Source: Octopus vulgaris (taxonomy: Eukaryota). From it: a stretch of 64,000 bases of DNA. Below are positions 360-62,949 of the stretch, piece after piece. Position 1 is the stretch's first letter, and each line of letters opens with the position of its first letter. Below the pieces are notes generated by a model. It saw only the letters and a list, made by a program, of their open reading frames with translations, had not been told where the DNA came from and made no database searches. The translations under genes and the position numbers were made by a program. The stretch lies in contig OX597816.1 in assembly GCA_951406725.2 (NCBI GenBank), positions 49,786,001-49,850,000 on the forward strand, read 5' to 3'.

Positions 360-5090
<4,731 letters not shown>

Positions 5091-5199
5091 ACAGTCTATA
5101 TAAACATGGTCACATTAACATAGTCTGACATATGTCACACACAAGATCCACACATATTTACACAAGTAATACATTTATATATATATAGCATATACCTTA

Positions 5200-6300
5200 T
5201 TACCTCAAAAGCAACATATTCCTACAACTGTGTATAGGATGTATCATATAAATGCTATGTACATATAATATACCATCACCGAACGTCTTATCCTACACGT
5301 AAGACCTTTTCGACATCCATATATATAAAAAATATATACGTCAGCATAGTACATCTGAAATAAGTGACCTATTTATATATATAGGCTGAAGATATTCACA
5401 CCCATGGTCTTTTATATTTTCGTACATAAACACAGGACCACATAGAAAAATCTTTACACCTTCTTTAAAAACTTACCTTAGGATTACCTAGAATCCAACA
5501 CATACAAATAATATACGTATACTTAAAAACCTCACTTTATTATACACATAACCAAATGAATCCTTAGATATATAGACATAATTCCAACCAAAAAATATAT
5601 TAGATAATATACATCTCAATTATACTAGCCTGTAGGATAGATATCTTTAAGGCCGCAGCCCCCTATTACAACTATACAGTGGTTAAAGATAAGATGTAGT
5701 ACAACATGATGACAGACACATTAGCTGGTACAACCCCTTCAACCGTGAGGTCGCTACACCTGTAATAAAATTCACTCTCCTACAGAAACACTTCCCCAAC
5801 ATAAGTATACACATACAAATAAGAACACTATTAGATCCTACTCTACCACGCCCAATAGCCAGGAACCTAGCCAACAACAATGTGAAAAAACTTAATATAT
5901 CTACTTTTCCGATAACGTATACAATTGCAACTGCCCTATAAAACCACCTGTACAACAACTGCCTACAGAGGACCTATATATACATGCGAGGTAAGATCAT
6001 ATATAAAAGATCCACATATACGTCAAACAGCTTTAAGACCCGCGTACGCCCACACACTCGTTCGGCGACCGGATAAATCCAACCAAACTACCTCGCCGCC
6101 CACATCTGGTACCTTAAAAGGAACTCAATCCCCTTCAAGACCAAGTGGAAACTACAAGGCGCGTTGTACACAGGAGGACATAGTGACCTATGCATATCAG
6201 AGAGCCTAGAGATCTTGTTCGCCAAAGGCCCTCTCCTTAACAAATTTTCATATAACACTCCCAAATTGCATGCATAAGAATTATGCGAACTACAAGAACC
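5200..6300 (+). pseudogene. Decayed Penelope-like retroelement ORF (RT thumb/linker + GIY-YIG endonuclease), probably Naiad-like
   Basis: Hand translation across frameshifts gives PNESLRYID..SN (about 5550-5590), RHISWYNP.FNREVATPV..LLQKHFP..NKNTIR.SYSTTPN (about 5714-5856), CNCPIK.TC..NNCLQ..IYTCEV (about 5926-5993), SFKTR, AAHIWYLKRNSIPFKTKWK, DLCISESLEILF..LLNK and CMHKN. These match the WxNPP..CxC..CxxC..CxH signature of PLE linker/endonuclease domains. Confidence 0.8.
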
Positions 6301-6399
6301 TACCCCGGCAACCTGATTGATGACAACCCCACCACAACCCCCCAACCCCACTGTTCCCCTAGCACCCCCGATTACCTTTTCTCCTAAGACCTTTCACAT

Positions 6400-6885
6400 A
6401 TTGTATGTGCACGCTTGTATATGTGTATCGTATGTATGTATATATGTATAGAAATGCATGGGTACAGTAGGAATATACGCATGTATTATGTGTGTGTGTG
6501 TATGTATGTGTATATATATGTGTATATATATTGTGTGTGTGTGTATATATATATATATATGTATGTGCTTGTATGTGTGTGTGTGTGTATGTATGTATAT
6601 ATGTATATGTGTATATATGTATATGCATACGTATGTGTATGTGTATGTGTATATGTATGTGTATGTATGTATAAAATATTATATAATTAGGGCTTAGGAA
6701 AATAAAATAAATTACTTTGCCACATACTGAACTTTCTAGAAATAGCAGCCAATAAAGTTTTTTAGCCATCTTCCACTACTTAGAGAATTTCTCTCTAACA
6801 TTGTTTACTCAAAATAATAATGGTCCCTTTACATACTGAATACTTGATGAAATTGATTAATAACTAATTAACTTTACCCTCTTGT

Positions 6886-10049: not shown

Positions 10050-11311
<1,262 letters not shown>

Positions 11312-11339: not shown

Positions 11340-15705
<4,366 letters not shown>

Positions 15706-16545
15706 TTAAATCTTCCAATCTTTAAATTGTTTCAGTTTCAAAAGACCACAATTTTTAGCCTCCTTTTGTATGTAGCATTTGATGGATGAGGGAGATTGAT
15801 GATACTGCCCGCCTCTGTGTTTCCATTCGTGAGGTAGGCTCGTCTGGAACCCTCGATAAATAGAGAAGTTTCGTTTTCAAGTCCCCACCATCCACACTAT
15901 GCAGATCGCTTAGGCATTTTGGAAGTATATTGGAGAACTGTGGGCCCTTTAAAACCAAACTGTTGCAATATCTGGTCCTGTATATTGATGAGAATGCTGG
16001 GATCATTTCCTGTATGCAGTGATAGCCTGTTCTGCTATGAGTGCAACTTCCAATTCTAAAGAATGGTACAAGGCCCTCGAGGATTTTCCAGATGCATATC
16101 ACAGCATATCTTACCCGCCTACGTTCTAGGGAGAAGCGTTTTAATACTTTCATTCATTCCCTGTAGCTGATATTTTGCATTGGGAGGATTTTCTTTGTGT
16201 AGGTTAGTTGGATTGCTTCTGGTTCCGCTATTAATTTTATATTGTGAGGTGACAATAGTTAGGAGTAGTAGTCCAAAAGTCTGAGGACGTGTGCCCTCCA
16301 AAGGACCATCATTGCCTACCTTTCTCTTGTTTTGAAGGTTCGAAGAACACCCAGGTGTCTTCATTTTATTTCCAAATTGGTAAAATGCACTTGAAAAGAT
16401 ACATCATTGTCCACGGCAATACACAGGTCATGCACTGATTTTGATTCAGTGATTGCAATTCCTCCCAGGCCAGTGTATACTGTCTGCATGTTCAACTTTG
16501 TGTGCTGGCAGCACAGGGCTTGGAATTTTCCTGCAATAAACTGCA
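15706..16545 (-). mobile_element. Older, diverged 5'-truncated family-A-related LINE (copy D)
   Basis: Translates as [29 protein letters not shown] and [39 protein letters not shown], homologous to family A. It ends in CTGAAAC plus a short tail. Both ends lie in TA arrays. Confidence 0.9.
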
Positions 16546-16952: not shown

Positions 16953-19900
16953 CAGCAAACAGACCCAGGATGGACACCACCGGCAACAACGTACACCTCA
17001 CCTCGATGCTCCTACTGAACATCAGAGGACTGCAAACACTCAGTAACAGGACAAAAATCCCGTTCCTGAGAGATTTTTTTTGCATGCAATCAAGCCTTAT
17101 GCATAGCACTAACGGAAACGCACCTGAAACCGGATATAGCAGATGCGGAGTTACACATACCACAGTATGCTGTACTACGGACCGACAGGAAAGAAAGGAG
17201 TCATGGAGGTGTTGCTATGTACATCCGTGAGGACCTCACACCCCAGGTCCTCTTGTCATACTCAAACTCGGTGTGTGACACACTAATTGTACATATTAGG
17301 CAACTTGATGTAGTTGTGTGTGCTACATACCGCCCTCCAGATGCCCCAAGCCATGTAGGCAAGTTTGAAGACTGCCTTATAAAAATAGAAGAAGTTCTAA
17401 CCACATTAGAACAACACATAAGTGTACTTCTTATGGGAGACTTCAATCTGCCCAATGTCAGATGGCCCGAGGGCCTTTCTCTCCCAGGAATGACAAGATG
17501 TGAACGAGGACAGGCGAGGTCCCTCCTGAACCTCATCAACACCCTGTACATGGAGCAGGTAATACTCCAACCAACCAGGGCAGGTAACACACTGGATCTC
17601 TGCTTCACAAATGACATGGATCTCATCCATAATGTGAAAGTGACACCGACACTACTCTCGGATCACAACATGATAGAGCTGACCATGTACGGGCCAAAAG
17701 AGAGCACGGACATGCAGCCTACAAGAAACCCCAGAATCTTTCCAGCTTGAACTACCATAAGGCAAACTGGAAACAAATTGAAAAGAGATCCTCAAACAAA
17801 ACTGGCCTAAATGTCTCTCCTCGCCAGACATCGAAGTGAAACTTCAACAATTCATGTCTGTAATGCAAGCCATATGCTACAAATATGTCCCAGAGAGAAA
17901 GGCCACTGTATACAAGAACAAAATCCCCAGAGAGAGGAAAATTCTAATGAGACGGCGTACAAAATTTTCAAATCGCCTAAACAAACAGATTGAAAGCAGT
18001 GAAAAGTCCCGCCTAAAAATAAAACTGTTGGAAATCGAAAAATGTCTGAAACTCTCCCATGAAAAGCAAAGAGCAGACAAAGAAGCCTGGGCTATAGACA
18101 ACATAAAATCTAACCCCAAAGCTTTCTACAGGTATGCCAAAGAAACGGCTACGGTGCACTGTAGAATAGGGCCACTCCTCGAAAAGGATGGCACACTTAC
18201 AGGAAAACCAATGAGGGTAAGTGAAATACTGAATGAGCAATTCAAGAGTGTTTTCACTCCACCCCTTGGGCATCTCCAAATCACCAATCCAACTGACTTT
18301 TTTACCACTGCAGATATAAAATCAGAGGCGGCGACGATAGATTACATCGATATAAAGGAAGACGATGTAATCAAGGCTATAGATGAAATGAAAACAGACT
18401 CAGCTACTGGCCCCGATGGATTCCCGGCAATCCTCCTAAAAGCATGTAAGAGAGTCCTAGCAAGACCACTGCAGTTCCTCTTTCAGAGCTTCCTTGCAGC
18501 TGGCAAACTTCCAAGAAAACTGAAGGAAGGTAAAATATGCCCCATTCATAAAGGAGTTAGCAGAGCGGAAGCCAAGAACTATAGACCTATCTCTCTGACC
18601 TCACACATCAGCAAGGTCATGGAACGAATAGTCAGAAGGAAGCTGATCACCTTCCTTGAAGAGAATGACTTGCTGCCCGACACCCATCATGGTTTCCGAC
18701 CAGGGAGAAGCTGTTTAACTCAGCTCCTACAACACTATGACTGGGTGCTGAAACGGCTGCTCAACCACTCAAATGTGGAAGTGATATATCTCGACTTTGC
18801 AAAGGCCTTTGATAAAGTCGATCATGGAATGATATGTCACCAACTGCGTGATCTCAACATAGTTGGAAAACTGGAAGAATGGCTTCATGACTTTCTGAAA
18901 GATAGAAGTCAGGTGGTAGTGGCCAATGGGGCCACTTCCATTAACAGGCAAATAGTGAGCGGTGTTCCGCAGGGCACTGTTCTGGGACCACTACTGTTCA
19001 TAATGGCCCTCTCAGACATGCCCTCAGCCACGCAGATAGCCACGATCACAAGTTATGCAGATGATACAAAAGTTTCACAGGCAATACAGAACCCTGAGGA
19101 CACTAAACACCTGCAATGTGAGCTAGACAAAATATACAAGTGTGCTGAAAAGAATAGCATGCAGTTCAATGCTGAAAGTTTCAAGCTTTATACTATCAGC
19201 ATGCAAAACTAAATGCAATACCCAATGAATACACTGGACCCGGAGGAATAGCAATCCCAGAGGCACAATCAGTGCGTGACCTAGGTATTTACATGAGTGA
19301 TGACGCGACCTTTCGTGTACATGTTGCTAAATTGGCAATGAAATGTAGACGACTGGCCGGATGGATCCTCAGAACCTTTAGAACAAGAGAACAAGAAACC
19401 ATGATGGTCCTCTGGAGGACACTTGTCCTAAGCCACTTTGACTATGCTCTCAGCTATGGTCACCATCCAGTGTCAAGTTGATCACAGAACTCGAGGCGAT
19501 CCAACGTAGCTACACGAAGAAGATAGCCTCTATGCAGAATGTAAGCTACTGGGAAAGACTCAGGAAATTAACATTATATTCCCTGGAGCGTAGGCGGGAA
19601 AGATATGCCATAATATACATCTGGAAGATCCTGGAGGGAAGTGTCCTGAACTTTGGCATCGATAGTTACGCAAATGCCAGAACTGGACGCCACTGCGTGG
19701 TGCCTAGGACTCCAAATTGCCATCAAGATGTAAGACAAGATTCTGTGATAGCCTGGGCTTCCGAGGCCCACAGCTCTTCAATATCCTCCCGAAGAACCTG
19801 AGAGACCTGCATGGGGTGGATACAGATGTCTTTAAAATGAAGCTGGATCTCTTCCTGTCAGGTGTCCCAGACGAAGCAACTTCACGGCAGGAGGGGCAGA

Positions 19901-20052
19901 TGAGGGCAGCTGCATCGAACTCTCTCATGCACCAAATAGCAGCTGCTAGAAAGCCTTCATGAAGTGAAACCAAGTAGCAACACCAAATGGCGGTGCCCCA
20001 GCATGGCCACAGCTCATAAGCTGAAACTGGAAAAATCAAAATCAAAAATCAA
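16953..20052 (+). mobile_element. Near-complete-ORF CR1/L2-group LINE, family A (copy E)
   Basis: EN motifs: LLNIRGL, ALTETHL, GGVAMYI, YRPP, MGDFNLP, LDLCF, SDHN. RT motifs: NYRPISLTS, HGFRPGRSC, YLDFAKAFD, GVPQGTVLGP, YADD. The 3' UTR is followed by an (AAAATC)-type tail. Both ends lie in TA arrays. Confidence 0.97.
16970..19962 (+). pseudogene. ORF2 (APE + RT, roughly 1000 aa if repaired), broken by several small indels
   Basis: ATG at 16970 ([21 protein letters not shown]). Pieces 17217-17750, 17836-19212, 19272-19481, 19478-19801 and 19717-19962 are collinear. Comparison with copy F shows 1-bp losses, e.g. GCTGAAAG vs GCTGGAAAG near 19173. Confidence 0.92.
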
Positions 20053-25451
<5,399 letters not shown>

Positions 25452-27072
25452 CACTGGCGAAAATTATTTTAAGACCAATGATAAAAGTTCTATTTCTTAC
25501 AAAATACTTTGTTACTAACACCATATAAATTATTTTTATTTTTACACCTTATGCAGAATTTATTTGTCTTTCGAATGATGCAGACAATAACTATTTTTAT
25601 ACAACTTGAATAATTCTAATGCTAAATTAATATAAACGTTTACCGGCAAAATTAGTTTAAGACCGTATCATTATAATTCTATTTAAAGCTTAAGATTGTA
25701 GCAAAAATTAGCAACAAGAATGAAATATATATTAGTACTTTGTGCCGTAGACTTTATTCTTAATAACGGGTGAACAACGCCTTGGCATTGAATTCGCTAA
25801 GTGTTTACAAAATTCTATGAGAATATTTTGCCATATTTTATTGGTATTATCGAATAATTGTTTTAGATTAGATGTTTTTTTTTTAGCATGGACTGTTTTG
25901 GAAACATAATTCTACAAGTTCTCGATCGGATTCATGTCCGGTCACTGGGAAGGCCACTCGATTACATCAATATTATGGTGATCAAAAAATTCCATAAACT
26001 TTTGTGCACACGACCATTATCCTGTGGATAAATAGCCCCCAGAGACATATGGTGCGTCAAATATGGCACATTATCCTTCAATAGATTCATATAACCTACA
26101 CTATTTTGCTTTCCATCAACTTTAACTAGAGGGCTGACACCAAAGCTACTAAATGCCGCCCACACTATCACACCCATACCCCCTGCTTTCACCGTCTTTT
26201 TCAGGCATTTAGGATGAAATTCCTCGGTTGTGAAACGCCTGACGTATGTTTTACTAACTGATCCAAATATACAGAAGCCTGACATGAAACTCCAAAGGGC
26301 CATGCACCAATCTCCGGCAGTCCATTGAACATGACGTTTTGCGAAATTAAGGCGTTTGAGTCGATTTATTTTGGATATTATTGGCTTTTTCCTAGCGATT
26401 TCTCCATGTAGTCCAAATTCTCTCAAACGGTTGCGGTTGGTTTATGGTGTAAAAATAACACCATTCTCGTTGGACAATTGGTTACAAATGTCAACGGCTG
26501 TCAGCATCTTGTTGCCTTCCGAAAGTCAGTGGATTCGACGTCCTTATGCGTCGTCGTTTTTCTTGGGGCGCCAGTCCTTTGCCGATCTTTATATTGACCA
26601 GTCTCCGAGTATAGCATCCACGTTTGCACGCAAGCCGTTTTACTGCACTTCAGTTGCTTGGTGATGTTCGAAAAGGAAACTTTTTGCTGGTGGAGTAAAA
26701 CGATTTTTGCTCTCGTGACTGGACTGAGGCTACGTTGTTTTCCCATTATTAATCAATTGTATAATAACGTCAAATTATAACACTATCTAATGCAGTTAGG
26801 CTAGTTGTGTGACCACCCATTTTGGCTAAAAAAATTGTTTACATTTTACATGGTCTTAAACTAACTTTGCCTGTAAATTTGAAACGGTTATATTAATTTA
26901 GCATTAGAATTCTTCAAGTTGTATCAAATTAGTTATTGTCTGCATCATTCGAAAGAGAAATAATTTCTGCATAAGGTGTAAAAGATAAACATAATTTGTA
27001 TGGTGTTCGTAACAAAATATTTTGTAAGAAATAGAACTTATATCATCGGTCTTAAACTTATTTTCGCCAGTG
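25452..27072 (-). mobile_element. Tc1-family DNA transposon, 1621 bp, IR/DR-type long TIRs, TA target duplication
   Basis: Termini are TA|CACTGGCGAAAAT...ATTTTCGCCAGTG|TA. TIRs of about 215-220 bp lie at 25452-25665 and 26851-27072. Each has outer and inner direct repeats (GGCGAAAATTATTTTAAGACC / GGCAAAATTAGTTTAAGACC). Confidence 0.95.
25732..26746 (-). pseudogene. Tc1 DDE transposase pseudogene
   Basis: The N-terminus MGKQRSLSPVTRAKIVLL is a paired-like HTH. Later motifs are ARKKP, RLNFAKRH, QDNGRVH, EWPSQ*PDMNPIEN and terminal TKY*. It has frameshifts and a stop, and the first catalytic motif is mutated (WSFMS). Confidence 0.92.
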
Positions 27073-28063: not shown

Positions 28064-28125
28064 CTCTTTTACTCTTCTATTTGTTTCAGTCATGTGACAG
28101 TGGCCATGCTAGAGCACCGCCTTGT
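28064..28125 (-). mobile_element. 3'-tail fragment of SINE family 1
   Basis: TTGTTTCAGTCATGTGACAGTGGCCATGCTAGAGCACCGCC matches the tail of the full copies. Confidence 0.8.
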
Positions 28126-28571: not shown

Positions 28572-28958
28572 TCTTTTATTGCCCACAGGTGGGGGCCAAA
28601 CATAGAGAGGACAAACAAGGAATTGAAACCTATTGTAGTCGCAGTAGTAACAATAGAAGAAGAAATATTAGTATTAGTATTAGTAGTAGTAGTATCAGTA
28701 GTAGCAGCAGTATCAATACTTACTATATATTTCTTTATTGCCTACAAGGGGCTAAACATGGAGGGGACAAACAAGGACAGACGAAGGGATTAAGTCGATT
28801 ACATCGCCCCCAGGGCGTAACTTGTACTTATTTAATCGACCCCCGAAAGGATAAAAGGCAAAGTCGACCTCAGTGTAATTTGAACTCAGAACGTAACGGC
28901 AGACAAATTACCGCTAAGCATTTCGCCCGGCGAGCTAAAGATTCTGCCTGCTCGCCGC
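28572..28958 (-). mobile_element. SINE family 2 composite copy with 17-bp TSD
   Basis: Head GCGGCGAGCAGGCAGAATC..., B-box-like GAGTTCAAAT, and body GGTCGACTTTGCCTTTTATCCTTTCGGGGGTCG. TSD TCCGATAATATATATAT at 28555-71 and 28959-75. Confidence 0.88.
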
Positions 28959-32589: not shown

Positions 32590-33011
32590 TTTTATCTTTC
32601 ATGTTTTACCTGTTTCAGTCATTTGACTGCGGTCATGTTGGGGGCGCCGCCTTGAAGGGATTTACATTTCTTTTTAAAGCCTGGTACTTATTCTATCGGT
32701 GTGTTTGGCCGAACCGCTGCGTTACTGCGACAGACGCACTAACACTGGTTGTCAAGCGGTGGTGGGGGAAAACACTGACACAGTCACACACACACACACA
32801 CACACACACAAACATACACACACAAACACACACACACACACACACACACATAACTACGACATGTTTCTTTCAGTTTCCAGCGAACAAATCCACTCACAGG
32901 GCTATGGTCGGTCCGACGCTATTGTAGAAGCCACTTCGCCAAGATGCCATGAAGTGGAACTGAAACCGGAACCATGTGATTGAGAAGCAAGCATCTTACC
33001 ACACCTGTGCT
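32590..33011 (-). mobile_element. tRNA-derived SINE family 1
   Basis: Homologous to 52375-52793, with an internal (CA)n and the conserved tail GGCGGCGCCCCCAACATGACCGCAGTCAAATGACTGAAAC. Confidence 0.9.
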
Positions 33012-33758
33012 TTTTCCAATAACCTTTATGAAACTGCACTACCTTCAGATAATTCTTTCCTCTCTAATTTGTTTTATTTATATAACCAAACGTATCCCTC
33101 TGTCGCATTGTCTCACTAAAACAGGTTAATACATTATATTCTGAAAAAATAACATCACAGCGTATTTAAGTTTCCACATATTCTTTTCACGAGTTTATAT
33201 TCGATGAATATTAATTGATTTTGAATATAAATAACTGCAATATCGAATAGAGAAGAAAATATCAATCACATCACATCATATTACAGATAGAAGTCTATTG
33301 AGTGTTCCAAGAAAATTATAAGATCTTTTTTTGTGAAATGGATTTATTGGAGACTGATCAAAATCAATTCTACATTGTATAGGTCAGTATTAGTATTTCC
33401 AATGCTGCTGTCCATTTATTTTCTGTGGCACTAATATACATTTACTATTATTTGGTTACCTCATTGATTTGATTTGAAGTTCCCAAATAATTTTCGGATT
33501 TAGTGCACGTTAAGTATTTTTGTTGTAATCCTCATTTTCTCTTGGAGATCTACCTTCAAAATTGCTTCTGGCAGAGTAATTATCTTCTTTATGTAAGGTT
33601 ATCTACGCATACATAATCTAATCTTCTTTTTTCCAATTTGCCCAGTGCAGGTTAATCTAAAGGGCGGGGTATAGCCCCTATTTCTAGCATTTTCGTCAAC
33701 TGTTTTGAAGATTTCTCTGTGGCTCGTCGTTCTGGGTTCGGTACCAAACTTTGCATCA

Positions 33759-34156
33759 TTTACTTGTTTAAATCATAAAACTACAGCTATACTGGGGTAT
33801 CGCCTTGAAAAAGTTTTAGTCGAATGAATCAGCTCCGGTACATTTTTTTAAAGCCTGGTACATATTCTTCTGTCTCTTTTGCCGAACCGCTAATTGGTGG
33901 TGAGGTAAGCTAACCAGCACCAGTTTTCAAGCATTGTTGGGGAACAAACACAAAGACTCACCCACACACACACACGTATATTTCATAAATATATTATGAT
34001 GGACTTCTTTCAGTTTCCGTCTCTCAATTCCATACAAAAGGCTTGGCTCAGTCCAACGCTATAGTAGAAGACACTTACCTAAGTTTCCACACAGTGGGAC
34101 TGAAGACCAAAGCCATTTAGTTGAAAACGAAGCTTCATACCACTTAACCATGCCTG
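33759..34156 (-). mobile_element. SINE family 1 (diverged)
   Basis: Contains the blocks TTTTGCCGAACCGCTAA, CTTCTTTCAGTTTCCGTCT, ATAGTAGAAGACACTT and CAGTGGGACTGAA. Confidence 0.85.
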
Positions 34157-36954: not shown

Positions 36955-37505
<551 letters not shown>

Positions 37506-45590: not shown

Positions 45591-46770
45591 CTATGAAAAA
45601 TGCGGACTCTTGCACCTTAATATTCTTGTTATTACATCTGGAAAAGTATAGAAAAGATTTCTACAGCAGAATCTGCCTAGTTCGTCACCTCTAAAGAAAC
45701 TAAAAATTACTTAAAATTAAAATTCTACTGTACTTAAAACATTGCAGCCGAGTATAGCATTTTAAAATTTTATTATATTTTATTAAAACAAAAGTTGTAA
45801 AAGCATTACTGGGTTTTTCCATAAATAATTTTAAACCTATGGGCTTATATTCAGAAACTCTTTTCAAGTATAGCCCCAGTAATTTTTATTATTTCCAGAA
45901 AAAAATATTCACGCAAGATTATTGAAGCCTGTATTTAATCCCATGGGCTTATGTTTGGAAATAGCAGTATTTTAAAAATGAAATAAAGTTAATTAAAAAG
46001 AAAGTACAGTAGAATTCGCCTAATTAAGTATCCCTAGACAATTGAAAGTACTGAATTAGATGAAATAATGAATTAGCCACACACGAATTAGACTAATTCT
46101 ATTGTATTTATGCTGACTAATAAATTTTACTTATGATTTATTTTTTAGATCAAACGTTTTGTTTTTTTTTAATGTTGAAGAATTGACTGAGCATATGGTC
46201 GATTTCACTCCAGTTAATGACCATTCTACTGCAAGCAATGTTTGTTTGTTTTTGCAATGGAATTTCAATTCAAGTGAAAAAAAGCTTGTGTAATATTATT
46301 TACAACTGCATATGTTGTTTGCACTTGATACAACTGAATTAAATCACTATTCTAACCATATATTTCAAAAGACATGATTAAAAATTTTTCCTTGTTTAAA
46401 TTTATTCTTGATTATTTCTGTACAGTATTTTTCAGGATTTACTTTTTAGATTATCAAAACAAATAAAATAAATTATCTCAAATTTACCTATTATAATGTA
46501 TTTTAATTTTTAAAATGTTATTCTCGGCAGCAATATTTTACGTACTTTCTTTTTATTGTTTTATTCTTTTACTTGTTTCAGTCATTTGACTGCGGCCATG
46601 CTGGAGCACTGCCTTTAGTCGAATAAATCGACCCTTAGAATTATCCTTTGTAAGCCTAATACTTTTTCTACCGGTCACTTTTCGCCGAATCACTAGGTTA
46701 CGGGGACGTAAACACACCAGCATCGGTTGTCAAGCGATATTGGACGGACACACACATACACACATAGTGT

Positions 46771-46802
<32 letters not shown>

Positions 46803-47122
46803 CGACGGACTTCTTTCAGTTTCCGTCTACCAAATCCACTCAAAAGTCTTTGGTCGACTCGAGGCTATAGTAGAAGACACTGGCCCAAGCTGCCACGCAT
46901 TGGAACTGAACCCGGAACGATGTGGCTGGGAAGCAAGCTACTTTCAATACAGCCATTCCTGCGCCTACATAGCTACTCCTGTAGAATTTTTATTTTAAGT
47001 ACTTTTTCTTTTCCTTTAGAGGTGACGAATTAGACAAATTCTACTGTAGAAATCTTGTTCTATACCTTTCCAGTTGTAAGAACGTAAGAATATTAACATG
47101 CATACGCCCGCATCTTTCATTG
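45591..47122. mobile_element. Non-autonomous TIR DNA transposon (about 140-bp diverged TIRs) with nested SINE
   Basis: 45591-45730 (ATGAAAAATGCGG..TTAATATTCTT..CTGGAAAAGTATAGA..TTTCTACAGCAGAAT..TTCGTCACCTCTAAAG) is the inverted counterpart of 46980-47122. Confidence 0.75.
46556..46966 (-). mobile_element. SINE family 1
   Basis: Full head (GGCGCAGGAATGGCTG..., B box GGTTCAGTTCC) through to the tail GCAGTCAAATGACTGAAACAAGTAAAAG. Confidence 0.92.
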
Positions 47123-52227: not shown

Positions 52228-54107
52228 TATAAAAACTCACAGCTTATTTTGCTGGGTACGACAGAAAGTATCATATGTCCACATCTAGTAGACCAAGGTG
52301 ACACTTGTTTACTGGTCATGCTTCAAGAACACTGCCAAGAATTCTTGCAGTTCCAAGCAATACTCTCTCTCTCTCTCTTTTACTCTTTTACTTGTTTCAG
52401 TCATTTGACTGCGGCCATGCTGGAGCACCGCCTTTAATCGAGCAACTCGACCCCGGGACTTATTCTTTGTAAGCCTAGTACTTATTCTATCGGTCTTTTT
52501 TACCGAACCGCTAAGTGACGGGGACATAAACACACCAGCATCGGTTGTCAAGCAATGTTAGGGGGACAAACACAGACACACAAACATACATGCACACACG
52601 CATATATATATACATTATATACATTTATACGACGGGCTTCTTTCAGTTTCCGTCTACCAAACCCACTCACAAGGCTTTGGTCGGTCCGAGGCTATAGTAG
52701 AGGACACTTGCCCAGGGTGCCACGCAGTGAGACTGAACCCGGAACCATGTGGTTGGTAAACAAGCTATTTACCACACAGCCACTCCTGCGCCTGCTGATT
52801 TTTGTAGGTGTTCTACCATCACATCTACTCTCTTCATTGACCACAACCTTCGTTTTCTCACTTCATTTCATCATAGTTATATATATCTTTCCTTCTTTCA
52901 CATTGATCCTATTGTCACCTGGGCATGCTATGTCGATTATCATACATGTTATTTCATTTTTATTCACCACAACAACGTCCGCTTTCTGATATCTTGTTAG
53001 GTGATCGCACTGGATCATTGTATCCCACAGAATTTTGCAATCCTCACTTCCGGTAACTCCTTCTGGACTTTGCTCCTACCACGTCCTTGCTCTTTGTATT
53101 AGGTAATTTCCACAAAGCTACAAATATGTCATTCTTACCACATTGTCATGGCGTCTTCTGTTTTTACGTTTTGCCAATTTCGGGCATTTGCTAACGATGT
53201 GCCATACCATTTCACACCTCTCACCAAACATTCTGCATTTGTCGTAATCGGTAGTGTTATCTAATCTGCACTTCATATATTTGGTCTTTAATGCTTGCCC
53301 CTGAGCTGCGCATATGAGTGCTTTTGTCTCTAACTTGAGGTCACACCTTCAACTACATAGTTATCGGTCCTCTGTATTTCTTTCTTGCGCTCATATCTCT
53401 TGCAAATTGACTGCACATTTTCTTTTCCTTCCATGTCTTATTTTTGTTCAATTCTTGTTTAAATTGTCGATGTTGATGACACCGGACTTCTTCCTATGTT
53501 TCAATAGTGGCTGCACGGCATTGTATATATACCCCCTTAATATGTTCTCTTCTGCTTCCATACAGTCCTGGCAACTGATCAAACCTCGCTCAGCCTTTCT
53601 GCTGGACAAGTACAGCCTATCGGTGTAACTTTTAGGGTAGAAGTCAACATTTTTCTGATTTTGGTATCCATTTTCTTCAATTCTCTATTTCCCACAACAT
53701 ACTGAAGTGATGGTATCGCCCACGTATTAAGTACTTGGATTTTATTCCATCCAGTCAATTTTGAGCGCAACACCAGCCTCAGATTTTGGTAATATTCAAT
53801 CCTCAGTTGCTATTTTATTTCTTTTTCTATTGTCTCTTTGAACTGCAGTGAACCAAGGTATTTATAACCTTCCGTTTCAAGTCTCTATTTGGTAATTCTA
53901 TCCCTGCTAGGGACTGCACCTTGACTCTTTTTAGGTAGATTGTTCCGCAATTCTTGAGTCCAAATGCCGTTTTAACATCAGTACAAAAACAGTGAACCGT
54001 TTTCACTGAGAGACACTTTTGTGTCTCATTTTTGCCATTCACTTTCAAATGATCCATGAAGAGGTGGTTGATTGTATGAGATTCTCCTTTTAGTTGGTAC
54101 GTCATGA
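52227..54107 (-). mobile_element. Decayed R4/Dong-clade non-LTR retrotransposon (RT C-half + CCHC + restriction-like endonuclease), split by a SINE
   Basis: Hand translation gives INHLFMDHLK (LxMDDLK), FGLKNC, YKYLG, LRSKLTGWNKIQVLNTWAIP, ETKALICAAQGQALR, CRMFG...HIVSKCPKLA...RRHDNV, LWD..IQCDH, ADVVVV..CMIIDIACPGD.RI..KE and HLQKS|VLLGTARILGSVLEA*. The 5' end abuts the (TAA)n array. Confidence 0.85.
52365..52793 (-). mobile_element. tRNA-derived SINE family 1, well preserved copy
   Basis: Head GGCGCAGGAGTGGCTGTGTGGTAA (A box) and GGTTCAGTCTC (B box). Tail GGCGGTGCTCCAGCATGGCCGCAGTCAAATGACTGAAACAAGTAAAAGAG. Inserted into the R4/Dong ORF. Confidence 0.93.
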
Positions 54108-54574: not shown

Positions 54575-54940
54575 TGCTGGAGTGGTTGTGTGGTGAGTAG
54601 CTTGCTTGTAAGACACATGGTTCCCTGTTCAGTCCCACTGTGTGATGCCTTGGGCAAGTGCCTTCCACTATAACTTCGGACCGACCACAGCCTTGTGAGT
54701 GGTTTTGGTAGACAGCAAATGTGTGTGTTTGTGTGACTGTGTTTGTACAACACACCTTCGCTTGACAACCGATGTTTGTGTGTTTACGTTCCCGATAGCT
54801 AGTGGTTCGGCAAAAGAGACCGATAGATTAAGTACTAGGCTCACAAGGAATAAGTTCCACGGTTGACTTGTTCGACTAAAGGTGGTGTTCCAGCATGGCC
54901 GCAGTCAAATGACTGAAACGAATAAAAGAATAAAAGAATA
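54575..54940 (+). mobile_element. SINE family 1
   Basis: Head GGAGTGGTTGTGTGGTGAGTAG..TGTTCAGTCCC. Tail GGTGGTGTTCCAGCATGGCCGCAGTCAAATGACTGAAAC followed by (GAATAAAA)2. Confidence 0.92.
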
Positions 54941-56657: not shown

Positions 56658-57232
56658 TAGGCGGCGAGTTGGCAGGAAATGCTTAGTGGTATATCGTCTG
56701 CGGTTACGTTGTCAATTCAAATTCCGCCGAGGTCGATTTGTCTTTCATCCTTTCGGGGGTCGATTAAATAAGTACCAGTTACATACTGGGGTTGATGTAA
56801 TCTACTTAATCCACTTGTCTGTCCTTGTTTGTCCCCTCTGTGTTTAGCCCCTTGTGGATAGTAAAGAAATAGGTATTTTGTCTGCAGTTACATTCTGAGT
56901 TCAAATTCCGCCGAGGTCGACTTTGCCTTTCGGGGTCGATAAATTCAGTACCAGTTTCGCACTGGGGTCAATGTAATACACTTAATCCGTTTGTCTGTCC
57001 TTGTTTGTCTTCTCTGTGTTTAGCCCCTTGTGTGTAGTAAAGAAATAGGTATTTTGTCTGCCGTTACGTTCTGAGTTCAAATTCCGCCCAGGTCGACTTT
57101 GCCGTTCATCCTTTCGGGTGTCGAGAAAATATGTACCAGTTACGCACTGGGTTCGATGTAATCGACTTAATCCCTTTGTCTGTTCTTGTTTGTCCCCTCT
57201 ATGTTTAGCTCCTTGTGGGCAAAAAAAAGAAA
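56658..57232 (+). mobile_element. SINE family 2, head-to-tail trimer (about 175-210-bp units)
   Basis: One head (GGCGGCGAGTTGGCAG) is followed by three bodies. Each body ends TTTAGCCCCTTGTG..AAAGAAA, and units restart at GGTATTTTGTCTGC (about 56872 and 57048). Confidence 0.9.
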
Positions 57233-57589: not shown

Positions 57590-57800
57590 AGGCGCAAGCT
57601 GCAAGGATCGTTACCGCACCGGTCAACAATTTTTTGTGGCATTTCTTTAAGTTTTGTGCTGAAATACCTACGGAGTCGACTTTACAATTCATCCTTTCGG
57701 GGTCAGGAAAATACATACCAGTTGAGCGCTGCGGCCAATATAATCGACTAATCTCCTCCCCTGAAATTGCTGGCTGTGTGCCAATATTTAAAATCACTAT
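57590..57800 (+). mobile_element. Diverged SINE related to family 2
   Basis: Contains the body GTCGACTTT..TTCATCCTTTCGGGGTC and the tail CCCCTGAAATTGCTGGCTGTGTGCCAA. A similar tail lies at about 54255-54325. Confidence 0.65.
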
Positions 57801-61640: not shown

Positions 61641-61950
61641 TTGGCCATGTTAGAGCACCGCCTGTAGTCGAGCAAATTGACACCAAGACTTATTCTTTGT
61701 AAGCCTAGTACTAATTCTATCGGTCTCTTTTGCCGAACCGCTAAGTTACGGGGTCGTAAACATACCAGCGTCGGGTATCAAGCAATGGTGGAGGAACAAA
61801 CACGGATACACAAACATAGACACACACACACATACATATATATAAATGCATATGCATTTATACGACGGGCTTCTTTCAGTTTTCGTTGGTCGGCCCGCGG
61901 GTATATTAGAAGACACTTACCTAAGGTGCCACGCAGTGGGACTGAACCCA
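61641..61950 (-). mobile_element. SINE family 1, truncated at both ends
   Basis: Runs from GGCCATGTTAGAGCACCGCC to GTGCCACGCAGTGGGACTGAACCC, homologous to 52365-52793. Confidence 0.88.
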
Positions 61951-62949
61951 AATCCTTTTAGCAAAGTGATAAGCAAACTCGATGACTAGGTTCCGTTTCG
62001 TTTCTTAATCTCTTCAACAAGGTATAATCCTAATCGGTTAGAGTAATCAAAACATGTAAAACTTATAATATACACGACTGGTTGGTTATGTTACATCAAC
62101 GCGGAATAAAATATACTTCCTCACATATTGTATTTACGTATTTGGGAGTATGATCATTTGCCCTTTTGTTGGAATGCGAGGAAAAAATAAATTTTGACCA
62201 AAAATAAAAATAAAAATCTAAATTATTTTTCTTGGACATATAACAATTCCATGAATAGGTTGATTACATCCAATATTTCTAATTCGTTTCTCCAAATATA
62301 TTTCTTCAAAACCATATTGATTTGAATGTAGCGTGTGACGAAAGGATGGGTGAACAACGTAACACGGATTGTATTATATAGATTTACAGAGATAATTTAT
62401 TAGTGAAAAATTCTGTTGATACGATGACAGGTGAGTGTGAATTTGAAAGCTATTTTTAATGATACGAGGGAACACGTACGAGCACTTTTCTTGGCTGAAA
62501 ATTAGAATATATATTCACGGACTCAAAATACCCAGAAGTTATTATTTATGGAATAATTGATTTTTACCATTGAGAGAGAGATAACATTTAAGTACGTGGT
62601 AATTCAAGAAGATGAAGGAAAATATATTTTGGGAATTAGTCCCTTTAAACGATTTCATTTGAAATTTTCCCGGCATTAATTTAAGAAAAAATAATCGTAA
62701 AAATAGGTTTTTCTAAAAGGTATTTCCATTATAGGAAACATCTTTTTAAGGGTATTTCCATCAAAAGTAGGAAAGAAACCAGCGTCGGGTAGAACAATTA
62801 ATTATATCAATCCCTACACTTTCTAATCAAAATATTAATTTACTCTTTCTGTTTTTCATTCATAAACACGCGCGTGCACACACACGCACAACGTGTGTAT
62901 GCGTCTATGCCTGTATTTGCATATAAGTATTTGGGCGTTACGTAAATAC

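What the first reader, a model, noticed from the sequence alone, without database searches (positions are those of the whole stretch)
19988..20027. Covarying two-hairpin 3' RNA element shared by LINE family A, LINE family B and the dominant SINE
Seen: family A reads TGGC-G-GTGC-ccca-GCAT-G-GCCA then CAGCT-cata-AGCTG-AAAC (19988-20027; also 21302-21341). SINE family 1 reads GGC-G-GTGC-tcca-GCAT-G-GCC, G, then CAGTC-aaat-GACTG-AAAC (52394-52432, 54881-54919). Family B (minus strand, 10881-10932 and 11688-11740) reads CCAGGT-G-GTGCTA-ttaagt-TAG(A)CAT-G-GCCTGG, then GCCA-ataa/atac-TGGC, then C-GAAAC/AAAAAC. Hairpin 1 keeps an internal G-G mismatch in all three lineages. Hairpin 2 changes sequence (CAGCT/AGCTG vs CAGTC/GACTG vs GCCA/TGGC) but keeps pairing and a 4-nt loop, which is compensatory change. 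Established: stringent-type LINE RTs recognise a 3' stem-loop, and partner SINEs borrow the LINE tail. Inference: this is the RT recognition element, and the family-A lineage is the mobilising partner of SINE family 1.
Basis: partly seen in the sequence, partly recalled or inferred. Interest (0 to 1): 0.8.

Follow-up and report, generated by a model that had tools for sequence, protein, structure and literature searches.

The report
G·G two-hairpin LINE/SINE tail signal
Two distantly related jumping-gene (LINE) families and an abundant short parasite element (SINE) in this octopus-like genome end in the same small predicted two-hairpin RNA, which is also kept in many relatives from other samples and is likely the handle the LINE copying enzyme grips: a well-supported new variant of a known mechanism.

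Summary
LINE families A and B (35% protein identity) and a SINE end in hairpin 1 (1x1 G·G mismatch), an abutting hairpin 2, then RAAAC and a short terminal repeat. The host is probably an octopod (best named hit Argonauta). The element is clade-wide. Among 80 metagenome relatives, a G·G two-hairpin lies at the 3' end in 22 of 80, versus 1 of 80 upstream controls and 1 of 400 shuffles. Fifteen disjoint close pairs show 25 compensatory changes (null mean 5.8). The conserved core is 5'-YGG/YGR-3'; stems and loops otherwise vary. By analogy with eel and zebrafish L2, it is likely the cis signal bound by ORF2 for target-primed reverse transcription; this is untested. The SINE tail is closest to family A (5 of 6 copies), but the terminal repeat, apparent age and insertion context differ, so the partner is 'A lineage', not proven family A. 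SINE-LINE tail sharing is textbook and known for bivalve CR1/CORE-SINE pairs; this scan noted a similar case on another genome. My eight searches found neither this octopod pair nor the G·G motif. Interest 0.4.

The parts
19988..20009 (+). Hairpin 1 of family A copy A1: 4-bp outer stem, G19992·G20005 1x1 mismatch, 4-bp inner stem starting with a G·U pair, CCCA loop
   Evidence: among laid contigs of 4 organisms the only variant at >=5% is 19991 C>T, which keeps the pair as U·G
20010..20027 (+). Hairpin 2 (CAGCT/AGCTG, 4-nt loop) plus AAAC linker
   Evidence: variants at >=5% occur only in the loop, at 20015, 20016 and 20018
20028..20050 (+). Degenerate terminal repeat, (TCAA)n in the cleaner copies, followed by a (TA)n array
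   Evidence: loose ends
16954..20027 (+). Family A copy A1: 5'-truncated LINE ORF2 (APE 17070-17747, RT in 17782-19209) broken by frameshifts/stops; stop codon 19960-19962, 25 nt before hairpin 1
17914..17988 (+). Basic EN-RT linker segment (IPRERKILMRRR), conserved as IPxxRxxxMRKR in relatives; candidate tail-binding region by position only (inferred)
   Evidence: analogy to PMC4176376; no alignment to ZfL2 possible
21302..22319 (-). Family A copy A2, 5'-truncated, intact tail at 21302-21341
1894..2856 (+). Family A copy A3, same 5' truncation point as A2, indel-rich, hairpin 1 damaged
11688..14469 (-). Family B copy B1 (APE-linker-RT, one frameshift); tail 11688-11740 with G·G hairpin 1 (bulged A, 6-nt loop) and GGCCA/TGGCC hairpin 2
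10881..11311 (-). Family B copy B2, 5'-truncated; tail 10881-10932; (TATCAAAG)-type terminal repeat
15725..16545 (-). Old A-related LINE fragment 'C' (67% DNA identity to A); tail decayed, not matched by the model, but ends ACTGAAACAA.T.AAAGA like the SINE (22 of 26)
52375..52793 (-). Best-preserved SINE copy: head with A/B-box-like stretches (by eye), central domain, (TA/TG)n spacer, 3' body, two-hairpin tail 52394-52432, AAGTAAAAGAGTAAAAGA repeat
   Evidence: ARAGORN and Rfam did not detect tRNA
54578..54940 (+). SINE copy, tail 54881-54919
46555..46966 (-). SINE copy, tail 46575-46613 (A·G instead of G·G)
36955..37498 (-). Older SINE copy, hairpin 2 altered
32592..33004 (-). Older SINE copy, hairpin 1 loop CCCA-like as in family A
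33745..34156 (-). Oldest SINE copy, decayed tail, CCCA loop, G·A
61643..61961 (-). SINE copy broken after hairpin 1
28070..28125 (-). Isolated SINE tail next to a (TA)n run

Best explanation
The two-hairpin tail, conserved and covarying at the 3' end of this LINE clade and of the SINE, is likely the cis-acting RNA signal that the LINE ORF2 protein binds to start target-primed reverse transcription, and the SINE likely took it from the family-A lineage to borrow that enzyme. Shown: position just upstream of the terminal repeat, structure conservation with compensatory change, a sequence-conserved YGG/YGR core (G·G mismatch next to a G·U pair), and closest similarity of the SINE tail to family A. 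Inferred from eel and zebrafish L2 work: ORF2, via its EN-RT linker, reads the general stem shape and a flexible mismatch hinge. Also inferred: the variable loops give family specificity, and priming starts in the short terminal repeat downstream.
For: Descriptor scan without any G·G requirement: 43 of 80 relatives' tails match, 22 with G·G (21 clusters at <80% aa identity). Controls: 2 of 80 upstream windows (1 G·G), 8 of 80 reverse complements (0 G·G), 27 of 400 shuffles (1 G·G). On a MAFFT alignment of 25 tails, hairpin 1 is 92% paired, with 83% over both helices versus 54% shuffled and 32-40% for slid partners. RNAalifold predicts hairpin 1 unaided. 15 disjoint close pairs give 25 compensatory double changes (null mean 5.8, max 15 of 5000) and 29 broken pairs (null mean 53.6, min 42). 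The covariance model without filters hits the 3' end, sense strand, in 36 of 78 loci, 17 of them among 58 loci not used to build it, with 4 off-target hits at 2 distinct sites. Within family A, across four organisms, 1 of 26 stem positions varies (pair kept) versus 3 of 4 hairpin-2 loop positions. The second, unrelated SINE family in the window lacks the tail. Literature passages: L2 stem-loop and mismatch required, bound by the EN-RT linker (PMC1636434, PMC4176376); CR1 3' hairpin plus short repeat proposed as RT site (PMC4316615).
Against: No binding or transposition data exist. About half the relatives lack the exact G·G form: other 1x1 mismatches, 2x2 loops or no match (37 of 80 none, some cut off by contig ends). 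RNAalifold did not predict hairpin 2 on the wide alignment, where only 69% of its cells pair. The descriptor and seed set were designed after looking at the tails, so alignment statistics lean toward the structure. On the partner: the terminal repeat differs, SINE copies are older, and the (TA)n flanks differ (6 of 6 LINE copies versus 0 of 7 SINE 5' ends). One of six SINE tails did not rank A first.
Confidence: 0.78

Rival explanations
1. Same recognition element, but the SINE's partner is an unsampled or extinct sister lineage of A (for example the old C-like family), not family A as seen here.
For: The SINE terminal repeat matches the end of decayed copy C at 22 of 26 nt. SINE copies are 62-79% alike versus 89-96% for A. 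The insertion context differs. Contigs with an A-like hairpin end in three different repeats, including the SINE-type AAGTAAAAGA. Octopus vulgaris has 13 recently active CR1 families (PMC13282606 passage).
Against: Hairpin 1 of the SINE is 19 of 20 identical to A, and older SINE copies carry A's CCCA loop. C is itself an A relative, so this rival overlaps with 'A lineage'.
Confidence: 0.35
2. The structure acts mainly in 3'-end formation or stability of the transcript (processing, termination, protection from decay) rather than in RT recognition.
For: A structured 3' end would be selected under either role. In 16 of 22 G·G relatives the ORF2 stop codon falls inside the element, so it could also act at translation termination.
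Against: The SINE is non-coding and probably a Pol III transcript, yet it keeps the same fold. No Rfam family matches. The known precedent for shared LINE/SINE tails is RT recognition.
Confidence: 0.12
3. The hairpins are chance folds, or mere inherited sequence without selection on structure.
For: Single-sequence z-scores are modest (-1.8 to -2.9), and seeds were chosen for pairing.
Against: Shuffle, upstream and reverse-strand controls, pair contrasts, held-out model hits and loop-biased variation.
Confidence: 0.03

Closest known systems
Bivalve CR1-partnered SINEs: BivaCORE-SINE1/BivaV-SINE2 with CR1-14_CGi (PMC4824008, section 11 read); Amar_SINE-2_CORE with Amar-1_LINE#CR1 (PMC11481361 passages)
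   Same: Mollusc SINE sharing a 35-60 nt 3' tail with a CR1-group LINE, with predicted stem-loops and compensatory changes
   Different: Those partners are mostly CR1-Zenon, reported as scarce in cephalopods. No G·G motif is mentioned in the text read. I could not see Fig. 5B, so the same architecture cannot be excluded.
Eel UnaL2/UnaSINE and zebrafish ZfL2-1/ZfL2-2 3' stem-loop (PMC1636434, PMC4176376; passages)
   Same: Stem with an internal mismatch near a short terminal repeat; general stem plus variable loop; shared by the partner SINE
   Different: L2 has one stem-loop with a bulge and a U-U or A-A mismatch, and it is experimentally proven. Here there are two abutting hairpins with G·G next to G·U, and nothing is tested.
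Amniote CR1 3' UTR hairpin plus octamer repeat (PMC4316615 passage)
   Same: Hairpin plus short terminal tandem repeat proposed as the RT site; family B's 8-9-nt repeat is of similar length
   Different: Described as a single hairpin; no sequence comparison was made here.
Octopus tRNA-CORE SINEs (OR1 of Ohshima & Okada 1994, seen only as a mention in PMC4824008; 'tRNA-Core' main octopus SINE in PMC8967140 passage)
   Same: Abundant octopod SINE of about 400 nt with a tRNA-like head and central domain; probably this family (from recall)
   Different: No partner LINE for it was found in the texts searched. The original 1994 and 2005 papers and the SINEBase supplement were not readable.

Membership tests
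Stringent-type LINE 3' recognition tail | Structured element at the extreme 3' end, just upstream of a short terminal repeat | tested here: met
Stringent-type LINE 3' recognition tail | Structure conserved by compensatory change | tested here: met
Stringent-type LINE 3' recognition tail | Shared with a SINE of the same host | tested here: met
Stringent-type LINE 3' recognition tail | Required for retrotransposition and bound by ORF2 | not testable with these tools
   needs assay
CR1 clade LINE (Jockey superfamily) | ORF2 with APE endonuclease and RT, no RNase H, about 1000-1150 aa | tested here: met
   this feature is shared with L2 and Jockey
CR1 clade LINE (Jockey superfamily) | RT groups with reference CR1 rather than L2/Jockey in a tree | not testable with these tools
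   No labelled reference RTs were available. The 'CR1-like' label rests on recalled motifs and on CR1 being the Jockey-group clade listed as recently active in Octopus vulgaris.
CR1 clade LINE (Jockey superfamily) | ORF1 type | not tested
   Window copies are truncated within the endonuclease region; ORF1 of relatives was not analysed
tRNA-derived CORE-SINE (OR1-like) | tRNA-derived head with Pol III A/B boxes | tested here: inconclusive
   Box-like stretches seen by eye; ARAGORN 0 genes, no Rfam tRNA hit
tRNA-derived CORE-SINE (OR1-like) | CORE central domain | not testable with these tools
   No CORE consensus obtainable; resemblance recalled only
SINE/LINE partner pair (SINE with family A) | Tail closest to that LINE among candidates | tested here: met
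   5 of 6 SINE tails rank A first among 85 tails; only 3 host families sampled
SINE/LINE partner pair (SINE with family A) | Same terminal repeat and insertion signature | tested here: inconclusive
   They differ in the window; contigs show A-like tails with three repeat types
SINE/LINE partner pair (SINE with family A) | Overlapping activity periods | not testable with these tools
   No genome; window copies suggest the SINE is older
Known Rfam structured RNA or ribozyme | Match to a covariance model | tested here: not met

The most novel reading that the evidence does not exclude
A widespread invertebrate CR1-like clade uses an undescribed RNA recognition code. A sequence-fixed YGG/YGR internal motif (G·G beside G·U) in hairpin 1 would be read by a conserved basic ORF2 linker. 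Hairpin 2 and the loops would set family identity. The dominant octopod SINE would have expanded by capturing this code from the A lineage, giving dozens of natural RNA-protein variant pairs for mapping LINE template specificity.
Probability: 0.35. Interest if true: 0.62.

Novelty: new variant of a known kind. Interest (0 to 1): 0.4.

Why it matters
Template recognition has been mapped experimentally mainly for L2, R2 and L1. For CR1-group elements it remains a proposal. A 40-nt element with strong natural covariation across more than 20 divergent families is a ready-made target for structure and swap experiments. It also points to the LINE lineage behind a SINE class that makes up about 11.6% of the Octopus vulgaris genome (all SINEs; PMC13282606 passage). 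The principle itself, SINEs borrowing a structured LINE tail, is textbook.

Tried and rejected
No whole genome is held, so copy number, age profiles and other host LINE families could not be surveyed. The repeat finder was swamped by (TA)n. Viral and prokaryote collections held no relatives. Rfam gave no match at gathering level for the window, and only weak chance-level hits for the tail and SINE. Clade labelling through homolog names, the Atlas and PDB failed. The first descriptor scan depended on automatic end-finding and skipped 18 of 80 loci: 25 of 62 matched, 13 G·G. It was replaced by a fixed window. The relaxed descriptor is not specific on the raw window, with many hits in TA/TG repeats, so only its contrast against controls is used. 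The tree is the quick IQ-TREE only: 69 rows, with L030 and L059 dropped for internal stops and 11 rows collapsed at >=80% identity. It gives family A no supported sister, so it cannot date the SINE capture. Contig depth peaks over the tail, and 'joints' into 19985-19993 appear, but neither is used as evidence. No convincing target-site duplications were found for three SINE copies. (TA)n targeting as a clade trait is rejected: 1 of 66 relatives has a TA run after the tail. No earlier finding matched by sequence.

Full report
Setting. The window is repeat-only eukaryotic DNA. The best named homolog of the family A protein is from Argonauta hians (56% over 98%), so the host is probably an octopod. 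No whole genome is held. The first 26 kb is a (TA)n-rich zone, with 33% of tiles TA-rich versus 3% beyond. It holds six LINE pieces: family A (A1 16954-20027+, A2 21302-22319-, A3 1894-2856+), family B (B1 11688-14469-, B2 10881-11311-) and an old A relative, C (15725-16545-). They encode APE and RT domains with frameshifts. A and B share only 35% identity in the C-terminal region. Eight tails of one SINE family lie at 28-62 kb.

Observation. The shared A/SINE pattern has 8 matches against 0 in 100 shuffles.

Is the structure selected? I fetched relatives by the ORF2 C-terminus alone: 207 were confirmed and the best 80 kept. Their median pairwise protein identity is 45%, and their hosts are unnamed. 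A descriptor that allows any 1x1 mismatch matched 43 of 80 tails, 22 with G·G. Controls gave 2 of 80 upstream windows, 8 of 80 reverse complements and 27 of 400 shuffles, with 1, 0 and 1 G·G respectively. The descriptor was written after seeing the tails. On a plain MAFFT alignment of 25 chosen tails (22 loci and 3 window copies), 83% of cells pair versus 54% shuffled and 32-40% slid; hairpin 1 is 92% paired and hairpin 2 69%. RNAalifold finds hairpin 1 but not hairpin 2 there.

To reduce relatedness and selection effects I compared 15 disjoint close pairs, taking the structure from one member only. There were 25 compensatory double changes versus a null mean of 5.8, and 29 broken pairs versus 53.6. 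I chose the pairs among loci with a visible fold. Three pairs are not strict sisters in the quick tree, and three references contributed stray pairs from the repeat region.

The covariance model, run without filters on 78 of the 80 loci, hit the sense-strand 3' end of 36. Seventeen of these are among the 58 loci that were not seeds, though some are close kin of seeds. There were 4 off-target hits at 2 distinct sites, and one seed (L048) was missed. In the 36-row model alignment the core columns are Y 36/36, G 32/36, G 33/36 on the 5' side and Y 36/36 (U 32), G 33/36, R 36/36 on the 3' side. This is a G·G mismatch stacked on a G·U pair. Other subgroups shift the mismatch by one pair or widen it to a 2x2 loop while keeping both hairpins.

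Contigs from four organisms laid on family A show 4 variable sites (>=5%) in the 40-nt element. Three are in the hairpin 2 loop, and one is a C>T change that keeps a stem pair. These are assembled contigs, not reads.

Mechanism. Shown: a covarying two-hairpin element directly upstream of RAAAC and a short terminal repeat, in LINEs and in a non-coding SINE. Established, from passages read: in L2 the tail stem-loop and its internal mismatch are required for retrotransposition, and the EN-RT linker binds the stem generally and the loop specifically (PMC1636434; PMC4176376). The CR1 3' hairpin plus octamer is proposed as the RT site (PMC4316615). Inferred: ORF2 binds this element, perhaps through the conserved basic segment at 17914-17988, and primes in the terminal repeat. 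The G·G/G·U core would be the general determinant or hinge and the loops the family code.

Partner. Among 85 LINE tails, family A ranks first for 5 of 6 SINE tails (48 versus 28 for the best copy), and family B shares 10 nt. Older SINE copies carry A's CCCA loop. Against a simple A = partner reading: the terminal repeats differ; the SINE end resembles decayed C (22 of 26); SINE copies are 62-79% alike versus 89-96% for A; and 6 of 6 LINE copies, about 5 independent insertions, lie between (TA)n arrays while 0 of 7 SINE 5' ends do. The (TA)n association may be local, since only 1 of 66 relatives shows it. Contigs with an A-like tail continue into (TCAA)n, AGATAAAA-type or AAGTAAAAGA-type ends, so more tail-sharing families exist in these genomes. 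I put 'A lineage in the broad sense' at about 0.65.

Comparison and novelty. It works like the stringent L2/CR1 tail. CR1 membership of the LINEs and CORE/OR1 membership of the SINE are likely but rest on recall, not tests. Mollusc SINE/CR1 pairs with compensatory stem-loops are published for bivalves (PMC4824008, section 11; PMC11481361 passages; PMC4758252 passages).

Eight literature searches turned up no octopus SINE-LINE pair and no G·G two-hairpin motif. Neither did passages of PMC3747384, PMC10294476, PMC9115989, PMC3531059, PMC13282606, PMC8967140, PMC5786205 and PMC4120745. However, figures, Repbase/Dfam notes, the SINEBase supplement, one MetaSINE supplement and the Ohshima & Okada 1994/2005 papers were not seen and could hold it.

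Verdict: real, structurally well supported, a new variant of a known kind; interest 0.4.

Noticed in passing
window 1-26000: All six LINE pieces (families A, B, C) have (TA)n on both sides, and the 5' junction of A2/A3 shows ATA microhomology with the array. This suggests insertion into, or survival within, (TA)n arrays. Only 1 of 66 relatives has a TA run after the tail.
   Followed up: partly
window 1894-2856 and 21302-22319; also 1-216 and 23994-24233: A2 and A3 share the same 5' truncation point in opposite orientation, and neighbouring unique sequence is also duplicated inverted (89%). This is probably one insertion duplicated, or an assembly artefact; A3 is indel-rich.
   Followed up: partly
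L001-L080 tails: In 16 of 22 G·G relatives the ORF2 stop codon lies inside the RNA element, so the signal overlaps coding sequence. In window families A and B it lies 25 and 14 nt downstream of the stop.
   Followed up: partly
L001, L012, L015, L018, L019, L036, L044, L049, L071, L072; window A and SINE: The hairpin 1 loop is repeatedly NCCA (CCCA, TCCA, ACCA) in unrelated branches.
   Followed up: no
window 28728-28940(-), 56665-57226(+), 57647-57753: A second SINE family (Meta-like by recall), including a three-unit tandem array at 56.7-57.2 kb, with a different 3' tail lacking the element.
   Followed up: partly
window 25456-27068: Tc1/mariner DNA transposon remnant with about 210-bp terminal inverted repeats (89%) and an HTH_Tnp_Tc3_2 hit.
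   Followed up: partly
window 20027-20032 (loose ends): Many contigs carry the A-type hairpins followed by an AGATAAAA(TAAAA)n end not present in the window, possibly another SINE or LINE subfamily with an A-like tail.
   Followed up: no
window about 5100-6400: A-rich non-repetitive stretch that may be a decayed L1/Tx1-type LINE 3' fragment (impression by eye); the Pfam check did not run.
   Followed up: no
L034, L039, L041, L046, L054, L059, L066: A subclade with a Y·Y mismatch variant of the element followed by a longer spacer and an (ATAC)n end.
   Followed up: partly
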